DNA from: Hormiphora californensis
Lineage: Eukaryota > Animalia > Ctenophora
Direction: 5' to 3'
Assembly: GCA_020137815.1 (NCBI GenBank)
Contig: CM035359.1
Coordinates: forward strand, 744,001-808,000
DNA length: 64,000 bases
The position numbers and the translations under genes are program-made. This document shows, piece by piece, positions 1,125 through 63,929 of this stretch. The notes beneath the pieces were generated by a model. The model did no database searches. It had not been told where the DNA came from and saw only the letters and a program-made list of their open reading frames with translations. Each line of letters opens with the position of its first letter. Position 1 is the stretch's first letter.

Positions 1125-2485
1125 ATCGCTATGAAAGATAGAAGTGATCTAAAGCAGAGTTTTATTTTCAAATTAAGTTGTAAAGATAAATTGCATTTGT
1201 TTAAGAATGTGGTTCTGGTCTCATCACACCAGGACAGGTAATTAATTGACCAATTAAATAATTAATTATGTCATTTAAGTTATAAATTGAACAATAAACC
1301 TGTTAATCAATTAATTAATTAATTAATAATGTCCCTCAGATATGTCCCCTACCACTCTAATTAACTAATTAATAATGCCCCTCAGATATGTCCCTTACCA
1401 CTCTAATTAACTAATTAACTAACTAATAATGCCCCTCAGATATGTCCCCTACCACTCTAATTAACTAATTAACTAACTAATAATGCCCCTCAGATATGTC
1501 CCCTACCACTCTAATTAACTAATTAACTAACTAATACTCCTCAGATATGTCCCCTACCACTCTGCCCGGATAGAGATGTGTTCTGATAGTAGACGAGATG
1601 TGAGCTACAACGGACTGGTATACAAGGAGATGGTGGATAACATTATGGGTGCAATTATCAGGAACCAAAACTGTAATCTAGCAAGGTAGGAGCCCTAGTA
1701 ACCCCCAGCCCCCTTAGTAACCCCCCTAGTAACCCCCCTAGTAACCCCCTAGTAACCCCACTAGTAACTCCCTAGTAACCCCTCTAGTAACCCCCTAGTA
1801 ACCCCCTAGTAACCCCCTAGTAACCCCTCCCCTAGTAAACCCTTAGTAACCCCCTAGTAACCCCCTAGTAACCCCCCTAGTAACCCCTCTAGTAACCTCC
1901 TTGTAACCCCCATGGTAACCCCCCTAGTAACCCCTCTAGTAACCCTCTAGTAACCTCCCTAGTAACCCCCCTAGTAACCATGGTAACCCCCAGGTACAGT
2001 GTTCAGTATGCCCTAGATCAGGGCTCCCCTCCCCTAGTAACCCCTAGTAACCCCCTAGTAACCCCCTAGTAACCCCGATGGTAACCCCCATGGTAACCCC
2101 CATGGTAACTCCCAGGTACAGTGTTCAGTATGCCCTAGATCAGGGCTCCCCTCCCCTAGTAACCCCCTAGTAACCCCCTAGTAACCCCCTAGTAACCCCC
2201 TAGTAACCCCATGGTAACCCCCTAGTAACCCCCATGGTAACCCCCATGGTAACTCCCAGGTACAGTGTTCAGTATGCCCTAGATCAGGGCTCCCCTCCCC
2301 TAGTAACCCCCCTAGTAACCCCGATGGTAACCCCATGGTAACCCCCCAGGTACAGTGTTCAGTATGCCCTAGATCAGGGATCAGCTAACTCGATGATTGG
2401 TAGAGCGGCACACATAGCCTGTTTGGACTCCGAGGTATTTCTGAATAAGTTCTTGGGAGTGATGGGGTGGAAGTATTTCGTGTAG
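1125..2485 (+). CDS. FAM135: FAM135 family protein (DUF676/lipase-like C-terminus), last three coding exons; 5' part lies upstream of the window
   Basis: Exons 1125-1237, 1545-1685 and 2350-2485 have canonical AG/GT sites and matching phases. They join to [50 protein letters not shown]...[11 protein letters not shown]...[49 protein letters not shown]. This matches the FAM135A/B terminal motifs [20 protein letters not shown] and [12 protein letters not shown]. Confidence 0.93.
1322..1563 (+). repeat. Tandem copies of the FAM135 splice acceptor plus exon start (46-54-bp unit, 5 copies)
   Basis: cctcag|atatgtcccctaccactct, with AG ending at 1339, 1385, 1439, 1493 and the real site at 1544. Confidence 0.9.
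1694..2379 (+). repeat. (CCCCTAGTAA)n minisatellite intron containing four copies of the last-exon acceptor plus 30 exon bases
   Basis: cccag|gtacagtgttcagtatgccctagatcaggg, with AG ending at 1993, 2115, 2259 and the real site at 2349. Confidence 0.9.
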
Positions 2486-5400
2486 CGGACAAGTTCCTGG
2501 GAGTGATGGGGTGGAAGTATTTCGTGTAGCGAATTTCCGGAGTGATGGGAGCTAGTGTAGCGGACAAGTTCCTGGGAGTGATGGGGTGGAAGTATTTCGT
2601 GTAGCGGACAAGTTCCTGGGAGTGATGGGGTGGAAGTATTTCGTGTAGCGGACAAGTTCCTGGGAGTGATGGGGTGGAAGTATTTCGTGTAGCGGACAAG
2701 TTCCTGGGAGTGATGGGGTGGAAGTATTTCGTGTAGCGGACAAGTTCCTGGGAGTGATGGGGTGGAAGTATTTCGTGTAGCGGACAAGTTCCTGGGAGTG
2801 ATGGGGTGGAAGTATTTCGTGTAGCGGACAAGTTCCTGGGAGTGATGGGGTGGAAGTATTTCGTGTAGCGGACAAGTTCCTGGGAGTGATGGGGTGGAAG
2901 TATTTCGTGTAGCGGACAAGTTCCTGGGAGTGATGGGGTGGAAGTATTTCGTGTAGCGGACAAGTTCCTGGGAGTGATGGGGTGGAAGTATTTCGTGTAG
3001 CGGACAAGTTCCTGGGAGTGATGGGGTGGAAGTATTTCGTGTAGCGGACAAGTTCCTGGGAGTGATGGGGTGGAAGTATTTCGTGTAGCGGACAAGTTCC
3101 TGGGAGTGATGGGGTGGAAGTATTTCGTGTAGCGGACAAGTTCCTGGGAGTGATGGGGTGGAAGTATTTCGTGTAGCGGACAAGTTCCTGGGAGTGATGG
3201 GGTGGAAGTATTTCGTGTAGCGGACAAGTTCCTGGGAGTGATGGGGTGGAAGTATTTCGTGTAGCGGACAAGTTCCTGGGAGTGATGGGGTGGAAGTATT
3301 TCGTGTAGCGGACAAGTTCCTGGGAGTGATGGGGTGGAAGTATTTCGTGTAGCGGACAAGTTCCTGGGAGTGATGGGGTGGAAGTATTTCGTGTAGCGGA
3401 CAAGTTCCTGGGAGTGATGGGGTGGAAGTATTTCGTGTAGCGGACAAGTTCCTGGGAGTGATGGGGTGGAAGTATTTCGTGTAGCGGACAAGTTCCTGGG
3501 AGTGATGGGGTGGAAGTATTTCGTGTAGCGGACAAGTTCCTGGGAGTGATGGGGTGGAAGTATTTCGTGTAGCGGACAAGTTCCTGGGAGTGATGGGGTG
3601 GAAGTATTTCGTGTAGCGGACAAGTTCCTGGGAGTGATGGGGTGGAAGTATTTCGTGTAGCGGACAAGTTCCTGGGAGTGATGGGGTGGAAGTATTTCGT
3701 GTAGCGGACAAGTTCCTGGGAGTGATGGGGTGGAAGTATTTCGTGTAGCGGACAAGTTCCTGGGAGTGATGGGGTGGAAGTATTTCGTGTAGCGGAACAA
3801 GTTCCTGGGAGTGATGGGCGTGGAAGTATTTCGTGTAGCGGACAAGTTCCTGGGAGTGATGGGGTGGAAGTATTTCGTGTAGCGGACAAGGTTCCCTGGG
3901 AGTGATGGGGTGGAAGTATTTCGTGTAGCGGACAAGTTCCTGGGAGTGATGGGTGGAAAGTTTTCGTGTAGCGGACAAGTTCCTGGGAGTGATGGGGTGG
4001 AAGTATTTCGTGTAGCGGATGGGGAGATGGGGTGGAGAAGTTCTGGGTGGGAAGTTTGGGTAGGGAAAGTTCGGGAGTATGGTTGGTGGACAGTTCTGGG
4101 ATGTGTGGGCAAGTTTCGTGGTAGGGAAATTGTTGGGGAGTTGGGGGTATTGTTGTTGGTATTTGTTGGGAGGTTGGGTTGGGTGGAGATTTCTGTGGAC
4201 AGTTCGGGATGTGGGGTGTGGAAGTATTTCGTGGTAGGGACAAGTTCCTGTGGTGATGGGTGGAGTTTGTGAGTCGGGTGGAAGTTCTGGGGGAAGTTCT
4301 GGGAGGTGGGGGGAGATTTGTGTATGGAAGTTCGGGGTAGGTCGGAGATGTGGGTGGAATTCTGGTGCGGACAGCTGGGAGTATTGTGGGGAAGTTCTGG
4401 GTGTGGGGAAGTTTCGTTTGGGAGTGGAAGTTGGGGTAGGGGATGGAAGTATTTGTGGGCGGGAAGTTCTGGAGTGGAAGTTTGGAGTGATGTGTGGAGG
4501 ATTGGGTCTGGGTTGTGGGAAGTCGGTGGTGGTGGGAAGTATTTCGTGTGTAGGGAAAGTTCTGGAGTGATGGTGTGGGAAGTATTTGTGGTAGCGGACA
4601 ATTCCTGGTGTGGGTGGATGGGTAGGGTGAAATTCGGAGGATGGGGGGAAGTTTTGTGTAGGGGAAGTCCTGGAAGTTTGGGGAAGGTTTTGTGGGAAGT
4701 TCCTGGGATGATGGGGTGGAAGTATTGTGTGACGTCTGGGAAGTTGGGGGAAGATTGGTGGGAAGTTGTGTGTGGGAAGATTATGTGGGGAGAGTTCTGG
4801 GGTGTGGAGGAATTTCGTTAGTGGGACAAGTTCCTGGAGTGATGGGGTGGAAGTATTTCGTGTAGCGGCAAGTTCGGGAGTGATGGGGTGGAAGTATTTC
4901 GTGTTGGGACAAGTCCTGGGGTGAGGGGTGGGTATTTCGTTGTGGGACAAGTTCCTGGGAGTGATGGGTGGAATTGTGTGCGGACAAGTTCCGGGGTGTG
5001 GGGGAGTGGAGTATTTGGGGACAAGTTCCTGGGTTGGGTGTGGAAGTATTTCGGTGGGAAAGTTCCGGGAGTGATGGGGTGGTATTTTGTTAGGGACAAT
5101 TCCTGGGAGTGAGGGGTGGAATATTTCGTGTAGGGCAAGTTCCTGGGTGTGGGGTGGAGTTTTCGTGTAGGGGAAAGTTCTGGAGTGTGGGGGAGATTTC
5201 GTGGGGAAAGTTTGGGGAAGTTTGTGGGGAGATTTTGGGGTGGAAGTTTCGGGGTGATGGGGGAAGTTTCGGTAGCGGAAAGTTCTTGGGTGGGGGGTAA
5301 TATTTCGTGAGCGGACAGTGTGGAAGTTTGGGGGGAAGTATTCGTTCTAGCGGACAAGTTCCTGGGGTGATGGGTGTTGGAAGTATTCGTGTAGCGGACA

Positions 5401-63420: not shown

Positions 63421-63750
63421 TAAACCCCTCTTGGGGGTAAATTAGGTTTGTGCCCCCCCTTCCCCCCCCCCCACCCATCCCCTCCACCCCATCCCCTCCA
63501 CACCACCCCACCCCTCCACTCCCACTCCTTTCAGCTAACCTGGCGGTGCTGAACTTTATATTTCCACCCCCACACCCACCTTCTAAAACTCCTTTCAGCT
63601 AACCTGGCGGGGCTGATCCCCACCCATCCCATCCCCCCTCCACCCCCTCCACCCCACCCACCCCACCCCACCCACCCACCCATCCCCTCCACACCACCCA
63701 CCCCACCCACCCCTCCACCCCCCACACCCACCTTCTAAAACTCCTTTCAG

Positions 63751-63929
63751 CTAACCTGGCGGCGCTGAACTTTCTATTTCAACTGTGGAGGCTCGGGGAA
63801 TTCTTTAAACCAACTAACTACGTGTTTCTCTCCCTAACCTCTGTGGACTTTTTAAGAGGCCTCAGTGGATTTGAGTTTTATCTGCTTTATTTCAATTACA
63901 CTTCACCAGGATCAGATGAGCTATTTCAG
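63751..63929 (+). CDS. Exon of a class A (rhodopsin-like) GPCR, TM1-TM2 region
   Basis: tttcag|..NLAALNFLFQLWRLGEFFKPTNYVFLSLTSVDFLRGLSGFEFYLLYFNYTSPGSDELFQ|gt fits the TM1 Asn and the TM2 P.N.F..SL...D.L.GL signature. Confidence 0.7.

What the first reader, a model, noticed from the sequence alone, without database searches (positions are those of the whole stretch)
1125..63929. Tandem repeats are systematically anchored on exon boundaries, producing arrays of decoy splice sites
Seen in sequence: about a dozen exon edges, in at least six unrelated gene models on both strands, carry tandem copies of the junction itself. Acceptors: 1545 (4 extra copies), 2350 (3), 24291 (2), 29077 (~74), 29411 (1), 49052 (2, intron side only) and 63751 (2). 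Donors: 38643 (1), 43727/43678 (2) and 46971 (~5). Stop codons: 2485 (~90) and 39619 (1). The copy nearest the exon body preserves the reading frame; the FAM135 decoys run into in-frame stops. Inference: (i) splicing here must select the exon-proximal site over many near-identical upstream acceptors (strict exon definition, or recursive splicing). (ii) Either a junction-biased duplication process exists (transcription/R-loop-linked slippage, or rolling-circle reinsertion of small circles), or a high general duplication rate is filtered by selection. I am not aware of this being described as a genome-wide system, but I cannot search the literature.
Basis: partly seen in the sequence, partly recalled or inferred. 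Interest (0 to 1): 0.9.

Follow-up and report, generated by a model that had tools for sequence, protein, structure and literature searches.

The report
Comb jelly splice-junction "mirage" repeats
In a stretch of likely comb-jelly DNA, more than a third of the verifiable exon edges and stop codons have been copied head-to-tail into the neighbouring non-coding DNA, a repeat type already known from lancelets that is unusually dense here and likely reflects harmless duplications surviving longest beside exons.

Summary
The junction copies are real. Homologous proteins fix three genes: FAM135, a six-exon CAP-C-domain gene (204 of 207 aa identical to a database protein) and a ctenophore membrane-protein paralog. 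Edges are enriched over bulk non-transposon intron (9% covered; 0.7 hits expected), but whether the target is the junction or the exon-flanking ~100 nt depends on how arrays are counted (P from 1e-6 to 0.6). Stop codons (3 of 3 host genes) and putative branch points are copied too, which suits anchoring on constrained sequence better than a splice-specific process. The class is known: amphioxus "mirages" and the human F7 intron-7 VNTR. This scan noted it before in annelid, urchin, mussel and elephant-shark DNA, once with no genome-wide excess. No genome or usable RNA was available, so the genome-wide and splice-choice claims are untested. Verdict: a dense new example of a known kind, apparently the first in a ctenophore.

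The parts
1125..1237 (+). FAM135 (DUF676) exon; neither edge duplicated
   Evidence: tblastn to P0001 E 3e-8; Pfam DUF676 on P0001
1312..1563 (+). 46-54 nt units, 4 decoy acceptors plus the authentic one at 1545; each holds branch-point-like words, AG and 19 exon nt; decoys stop at codon 8
1545..1685 (+). FAM135 exon
   Evidence: tblastn to P0001 E 2e-13
1693..2379 (+). 11-12 nt intron-only array starting 8 nt after donor 1685, merging into 3 decoy copies (90-144 nt units) of acceptor 2350
2350..2485 (+). FAM135 last coding exon, stop 2483-2485
   Evidence: tblastn to P0001 E 3e-9
2447..6553 (+). 44-mer array copying the last 39 coding nt including the stop plus 5 nt of 3' UTR; about 96 copies, noisy core
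24079..24349 (+). 78-nt unit, 2 decoys of putative acceptor 24291 of gene C; a 44-nt insert with a 9-nt target-site duplication sits in the middle copy
24683..25906 (.). MITE with 26-nt perfect terminal inverted repeats inserted at a TA inside the 43-mer unit; a degenerate unit lies to its left
25905..29096 (+). 43-mer array: 74 decoy acceptors, each with a branch-point-like word at -18, pyrimidines, AG and 20 exon nt; all lead to stops
29077..29197 (+). Gene C exon, 68% identical to ctenophore membrane proteins including one named from Mnemiopsis leidyi
29355..29491 (+). Gene C next exon (29411-29491, weak colinear homology) with one degenerate acceptor copy at 29363
32012..32155 (-).
37286..37802 (-). 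CAP-C exon 5 (37389-37286) with an intron-only array that repeats the putative branch point at -18
38130..39667 (+). Gene D (4 exons by eye, nested on the opposite strand in CAP-C intron 4, no database match): marginal donor copy 38643, intron-only arrays repeating putative branch points before 38506 and 39563, one stop-codon copy after 39619
43590..43852 (-). CAP-C exon 4 (43852-43727) and 2 copies of its donor signal (about 3 exon nt shared); use would frameshift or stop
46780..47068 (-). CAP-C exon 3 (47068-46971) and 5 donor copies (27/36-nt units, 4 with GT), in frame and stop-free
47306..47625 (-).
48278..49051 (+). 151-nt duplication over a putative donor near 48322 and intron-side-only acceptor copies before 49052; exons unsupported
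56008..56150 (-). CAP-C gene first coding exon; donor not duplicated
63470..63929 (+). 2 decoy acceptors before a putative exon at 63751-63929; exon unsupported by searches

Best explanation
These are tandem copies of exon edges and stop codons of the 'mirage' minisatellite type, likely made by a general, untargeted short-duplication process and likely concentrated at exon edges because a copy frozen by selection makes them last longer there. Shown: the copies, their geometry, the stops that most decoys lead to, transposon insertions inside two arrays, and enrichment over bulk intron in this window. Inferred: (1) 10-150 nt tandem duplications arise often, by slippage or break repair; (2) those inside coding sequence are purged, while those across an acceptor, donor or stop leave one intact copy on the exon side and are nearly neutral provided the exon-proximal site is used or decoy products are removed by NMD; (3) the exon-side copy cannot diverge or be deleted and the exon shields the neighbouring bases from the deletions and transposon insertions that rewrite intron interiors, so these pairs stay recognisable longer; (4) any surviving pair can expand by unequal exchange to 5-96 copies.
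For: 33 hand-listed duplication events outside transposon masks, 18 of them intron-only, show a high general rate. Stop codons, which are not splice junctions, are copied in 3 of 3 host genes examined (one gene by eye only). Intron-only arrays also sit at edges: 4 further edges of the 17 have one within 40 nt, and 4 of 4 arrays just upstream of acceptors hold YTRAY words, 3 of them the word at -16 to -18 (background 16-31% per unit; post hoc). The intact-ended MULE element, likely young, has 0 of 8 by-eye edges duplicated. Toy survivorship model without targeting: 2-14-fold junction enrichment and 1.1-5.5-fold for adjacent intron-only pairs. Position-level test against 15-200 nt flanks: 26% covered, P 0.26 and 0.085. 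The same structure leaves splicing normal in amphioxus (PMC3087553, PMC3902484) and human F7 (PMC1557585). Transposon insertions and diverged copies show age.
Against: Enrichment is strong: 7 observed against 0.72 expected globally and 1.9 within 100 nt (P 2e-4). After automated collapse 4-6 of 17 edges are covered against 1-2% of positions more than 200 nt from known exons and 2-14% at 40-100 nt; that ratio exceeds most settings of the toy model, whose parameters are free and unmeasured. Counting each compound flank array once keeps the local test significant (P 0.001). 7 of 11 splice-site units are multiples of 3 (P 0.04, post hoc), which would suggest leaky decoy use shaped by selection.
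Confidence: 0.58

Rival explanations
1. Duplications arise preferentially at exon edges of transcribed genes, for example through co-transcriptional pausing, R-loops or nicks at splice signals or nucleosome boundaries, and selection only removes the intra-exonic ones.
For: PMC3087553 calls the generating mechanism of mirages unclear.
Against: Stops are hit as often as splice sites; the local excess disappears when flank arrays are counted at full length or as 5 or more events (P 0.24-0.63); the window was picked for showing the pattern; an earlier scan note on an annelid genome reports no excess in a wider sample (e1-9992352, not checked here).
Confidence: 0.27
2. The copies are selected: extra branch points, acceptors and donors would help the spliceosome find exons in transposon-swollen introns, or in-frame decoys would give length variants of the CAP-C domain.
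For: Each 43-mer is a complete 3' splice signal and intron-only arrays repeat putative branch points. CAP-C introns here are 0.3-8.5 kb while the same first intron reads through as about 52 codons in the relative P0010. Both CAP-C arrays are in frame and stop-free.
Against: P0010 shows no acceptor repeat in its read-through intron and P0009 has single-copy junctions. Copy number runs from 1 to about 96 without relation to intron length (arrays in 307-nt and 336-nt introns as well as 4.6-kb and 8.5-kb ones). Stop-codon arrays have no splice role. Most decoys lead to stops.
Confidence: 0.1
3. The arrays are long-read assembly or amplification artefacts.
For: The window has clearly unpolished stretches (about 8500-14200, 59500-63450, and the core of the 44-mer array). 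No DNA run holding the stretch was available.
Against: Copies carry consistent variants (43-mer variants in 43, 16, 8 and 3 copies), differ from the authentic copy at fixed positions, and two arrays are interrupted by transposon insertions with target-site duplications. Copy numbers of the two large arrays may still be wrong.
Confidence: 0.05

Closest known systems
Amphioxus 'mirage' minisatellites (Adh3, globins BflGb6 and BflGb9, troponin C, PGBD5; PMC3087553 and PMC3902484, passages read; the Adh3 paper of Canestro et al. 2002 was not held)
   Same: Tandem copies of intron/exon boundaries on both the 5' and 3' side, units of about 10-160 bp, many but not all keeping AG or GT, terminal copies escaping homogenisation, suggested to be general in a marine invertebrate lineage, mechanism unclear.
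   Different: Different phylum (ctenophore); much higher copy numbers (74 and about 96); several genes in 64 kb; copies also across stop codons and putative branch points; the passages read report no enrichment test; normal splicing and length instability were shown there and not here.
Human F7 intron-7 37-bp VNTR (PMC1557585; abstract, outline and Discussion read)
   Same: First unit spans the exon/intron boundary; 5-9 identical donors follow; only the most upstream is used. Matches the donor arrays at 46971 and 43727.
   Different: Single locus, donor side only; usage shown experimentally. Here acceptor arrays dominate, where exon-proximal choice runs against simple first-AG scanning unless each unit has its own branch point.
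Small tandem duplications from DNA break repair (PMC8355091, abstract and outline read) and intron gain by tandem genomic duplication (PMC3265369, PMC3443670, search listings only)
   Same: A general source of short tandem duplications with no need for exon targeting; duplicated splice signals as raw material.
   Different: No new intron is created at any site checked here, and which repair or slippage pathway acts in this organism is untested.

Membership tests
Mirage minisatellites | Tandem unit spans an authentic intron/exon boundary | tested here: met
   1545, 2350, 29077, 46971, 47484 on homology-fixed exons with 12-40 nt shared on the exon side; not met for 49052, marginal for 38643, 43727, 29411
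Mirage minisatellites | Both donor and acceptor boundaries affected | tested here: met
   Acceptors 1545, 2350, 29077, 47484; donor 46971
Mirage minisatellites | Many but not all copies keep AG or GT | tested here: met
   74 of 74 AG at 29077; 4 of 5 GT at 46971
Mirage minisatellites | Unit length about 10-160 bp | tested here: met
   27-152 nt
Mirage minisatellites | Concerted evolution of inner copies with the boundary copy set apart | tested here: met
   Authentic copy differs from near-identical decoys at 1545, 47484 and 46971; identical at 29077
Mirage minisatellites | mRNA is spliced at the authentic site | tested here: inconclusive
   P0009 has single-copy junctions, 204 of 207 aa identical, but its source DNA may lack the arrays; no RNA covered these exons
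Mirage minisatellites | Copy-number polymorphism or somatic instability | not testable with these tools
   No second haplotype, genome or DNA run
F7 IVS7-type donor VNTR | First unit holds the authentic donor and downstream pseudo-donors follow | tested here: met
   46971 with 5 copies, 43727 with 2
F7 IVS7-type donor VNTR | Pseudo-donors are functional but unused | not testable with these tools
   Needs junction reads or minigenes
   One window; significant against bulk intron, count-dependent against flanks; no genome

The most novel reading that the evidence does not exclude
This ctenophore lineage has a genome-wide process that preferentially duplicates RNA-processing landmarks (acceptors, donors, branch points and stop codons), hitting over a third of exon edges, so that its spliceosome routinely picks one site out of up to 75 complete, identical 3' splice signals, while in-frame arrays such as those in the CAP-C gene supply protein-length variants.
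Probability: 0.25. Interest if true: 0.75.

Novelty: new member of a known kind. Interest (0 to 1): 0.4.

Why it matters
The structure is known, but its origin is described as unclear (PMC3087553) and the passages read give only single-gene cases. A genome in which 6-7 of 17 verified edges are hit, stop codons and putative branch points included, has enough events to separate biased mutation from biased survival. The 43-mer array (74 complete acceptors ahead of the real one) and the in-frame CAP-C arrays are natural tests of 3' splice-site choice: first-AG scanning, exon definition and NMD predict different products. In practice such arrays mislead gene prediction and short-read assembly of ctenophore genomes.

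Tried and rejected
No whole genome is held, so the decisive genome-wide test was impossible. Sequencing-run search: no RNA holder listed; one run of the same species label held next to none of the words of 37950-44000, and laid on 45900-54180 it gave only short repeat fragments and no exon joints; this is no evidence on expression. No read evidence was obtained for the FAM135 junctions. Motif scans for more DNA of this lineage: 0 loci in viral contigs, 1 unrelated-looking telomere-like locus L001 in metagenome contigs, 2 Pedobacter loci in genome contigs (not examined further); P0009 found no relative in viral contigs. Gene D: no hit in Pfam, the word search, the pooled search or PDB. Exon 63751: none in Pfam, PDB or the pooled search; its likeness to a GPCR helix is recalled, not tested. 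ESM Atlas gave nothing usable for the 56007 exon and a sub-threshold BMP2K_C lead for the 24291 exon, superseded by the P0014 match. No downstream exons of gene C were found after 29491. My first guess of a mini-exon near 54110 was rejected by P0009. Recursive splicing and rolling-circle reinsertion: no feature tested supports them. Earlier-findings look-ups by place, relatives, P0009 sequence and two word sets returned nothing. Paper searches for a ctenophore case or a genome-wide enrichment test listed none; subscription papers are not in the library.
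Full report
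Source. No genome is held. The window is an animal long-read assembly with unpolished stretches, 158 TRF rows and many palindromic MITE-like elements. One exon matches four proteins at 68-69%, one of them named from Mnemiopsis leidyi, so the organism is likely a ctenophore (inference).

Exons fixed without reference to repeats. FAM135: a search with one exon found P0001 (DUF676), which aligns colinearly over three exons, 1125-1237, 1545-1685 and 2350-2485. Of 20 acceptor combinations only the exon-proximal pair gives the full 129-residue frame. CAP-C gene: an HMMER search with the 56007 exon, which has no repeat at its donor, returned P0009 (Pfam CAP_C E 2e-8, PDB 2b0r E 3.5e-4). P0009 defines six minus-strand exons with GT-AG introns of 0.3-8.5 kb; the model matches it at 204 of 207 residues. 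Gene C: exon 29077-29197 is strongly supported (E 1e-15); 24291 and 29411 are weakly but colinearly supported (E 0.003 to one of two proteins compared; E 0.3-3). Genes D, F and H have no database support.

Observation. Of the 17 FAM135 and CAP-C edges, 6 are spanned by a nearby copy under a strict 10+10 nt rule and 7 under a 13 intron + 3 exon rule; with gene C, 8 and 9 of 23; gene D adds 0 and 1 of 7; the MULE transposon has 0 of 8 (its edges set by eye, some off by 1-2 nt). FAM135 and gene-C decoys all reach stops, but the CAP-C acceptor and donor decoys at 47484 and 46971 are in frame and stop-free.

The arrays are biological. The 43-mer has recurring variants and is interrupted by a MITE at a TA site with a degenerate unit beyond it. 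The 78-mer carries a 44-nt insert with a 9-nt target-site duplication. Authentic copies differ from the inner copies at fixed positions at 1545, 47484 and 46971. Raw reads were not available.

Is it more than chance? Masks for noisy sequence, microsatellites and transposons were set by hand. Position level: 9% of non-transposon intron positions outside junction arrays are covered, P 0.003 and 0.0003 for the 17 edges; with junction arrays left in the background 28-33%, P 0.15-0.52; against flanks 15-200 nt from the edges 26%, P 0.26 and 0.085. Event level (33 hand-listed events, arrays collapsed): 0.72 expected globally and 1.9 within 100 nt, 7 observed (P under 5e-5 and 2e-4); counting each compound flank array as 1, 3 or 8 events gives P 0.001, 0.05 or 0.63. 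Automated collapse (two thresholds): 4-6 of 17 edges covered, 2-14% at 40-100 nt (P 6e-7 to 0.22), 1-2% beyond 200 nt. So exon edges are clearly enriched over intron interiors in this window; a spike at the junction itself is likely but not robust; and the window was selected for showing the pattern, with unrecognised young transposons probably lowering the far background.

What the pattern is anchored on. Stops are copied in 3 of 3 host genes examined (FAM135, CAP-C, and by-eye gene D). Four further edges of the 17 have an intron-only array within 40 nt, making 11 of 17. All 4 intron-only arrays just upstream of acceptors contain YTRAY words (consensus from general knowledge), in 3 cases the word at -16 to -18 of the real acceptor, against a 16-31% background per unit; 2 of 4 donor-side arrays and 5 of 11 distant arrays also hold such words on one strand or other, so this is a post hoc lead. 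The common factor is the edge of constrained sequence.

Mechanism. General short tandem duplications are a known product of break repair (PMC8355091, abstract read). A copy across an acceptor, donor or stop leaves one intact copy on the exon side. A toy model with no targeting, in which that copy cannot diverge and the exon blocks deletions, gives 2-14-fold enrichment at junctions and 1.1-5.5-fold next to them (free parameters). That spans the event-level ratios but only the strong-turnover settings approach the collapse-based ratio, so a mutational bias toward exon edges keeps about a quarter of the weight. Splice choice is inferred: decoy stops, and single-copy junctions in P0009, whose source may lack the arrays. 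In the relative P0010 the first intron is about 52 codons long and shows no acceptor repeat, so that array is likely lineage-specific. The one run offered gave no exon coverage.

Known systems. Earlier scan notes pointed to amphioxus 'mirages'. [quoted passage not shown] PMC1557585 (abstract, outline, Discussion) shows that only the most upstream of 5-9 identical F7 donors is used. The original Adh3 paper was not held. Passages of the Hormiphora genome paper (PMC8527503) report high non-coding indel heterozygosity and nested genes and, in the 12 of 15 places shown, nothing on junction repeats; PMC10078293 (12 of 15 passages) concerns human splicing-associated repeats in general. Ten searches listed no ctenophore case and no genome-wide enrichment test; no supplements were read. 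This scan has noted the same class in other genomes, including window-wide cases and one wider sample with no excess (unchecked notes).

Verdict. A real, dense set of mirage-type minisatellites, apparently the first noted in a ctenophore, with two extensions worth testing (stop codons and branch points; in-frame CAP-C decoys). Interest 0.4.

Noticed in passing
window 46780-46982 and 47467-47625 (- strand): Both splice-site arrays on CAP-C exons 2 and 3 are in frame and stop-free, so decoy use would add 10- or 9/12-residue repeats; the acceptor unit has only 12 intron nt, so first-AG scanning from the original branch point would pick a decoy. 7 of 11 splice-site units in the window are multiples of 3 (P 0.04, post hoc).
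   Followed up: partly
window 37404-37802, 38351-38467, 39483-39553: Intron-only arrays that repeat the putative branch-point word found at -16 to -18 of the adjacent acceptor.
   Followed up: partly
window 38130-39619 and 48229-49140: Gene D and putative gene F lie nested on the opposite strand inside introns 4 and 1 of the CAP-C gene, and a MULE lies in intron 5; nested genes are reported as common in Hormiphora (PMC8527503).
   Followed up: partly
window 32258-36702: MULE transposon with long terminal inverted repeats and a spliced transposase (Pfam MULE E 1.6e-10); its last intron holds a 650-nt minisatellite, none of its edges is duplicated.
   Followed up: partly
window 16349-17326: Single 325-codon ORF with coiled-coil character, resembling a retrotransposon ORF1 by recall; only weak Pfam hits.
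   Followed up: no
window 56127-56150: The start of the CAP-C protein is encoded by a near-palindromic stretch that resembles the 9-nt motif of the intron-end repeats and reads almost the same peptide on both strands.
   Followed up: no
window 2520-2555 and 6538-6556: The 3' UTR just past the FAM135 array resembles the start of the 44-mer unit, suggesting an older diverged duplication under the present array.
   Followed up: no
window 40473-40708, 42339-42468, 44555-44641: Clusters of short duplications far from any known exon; one repeats a donor-like word and two hold branch-point-like words on the minus strand, so unrecognised exons may lie here.
   Followed up: no
window 24291-29491: Gene C is a diverged paralog of a ctenophore membrane-protein family (P0013-P0016); no exons were found for the C-terminal two thirds before the CAP-C stop, so it may be truncated.
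   Followed up: partly
window 8500-14200, 59500-63450, 4020-5900: Unpolished, homopolymer-distorted long-read consensus; sequence there should not be trusted.
   Followed up: yes
L001:1-100 and 1051-1138: Short metagenome contig with telomere-like arrays at both ends, one matching the 11-12 nt motif; inside it has a duplicated stretch near putative splice signals; organism unknown.
   Followed up: no
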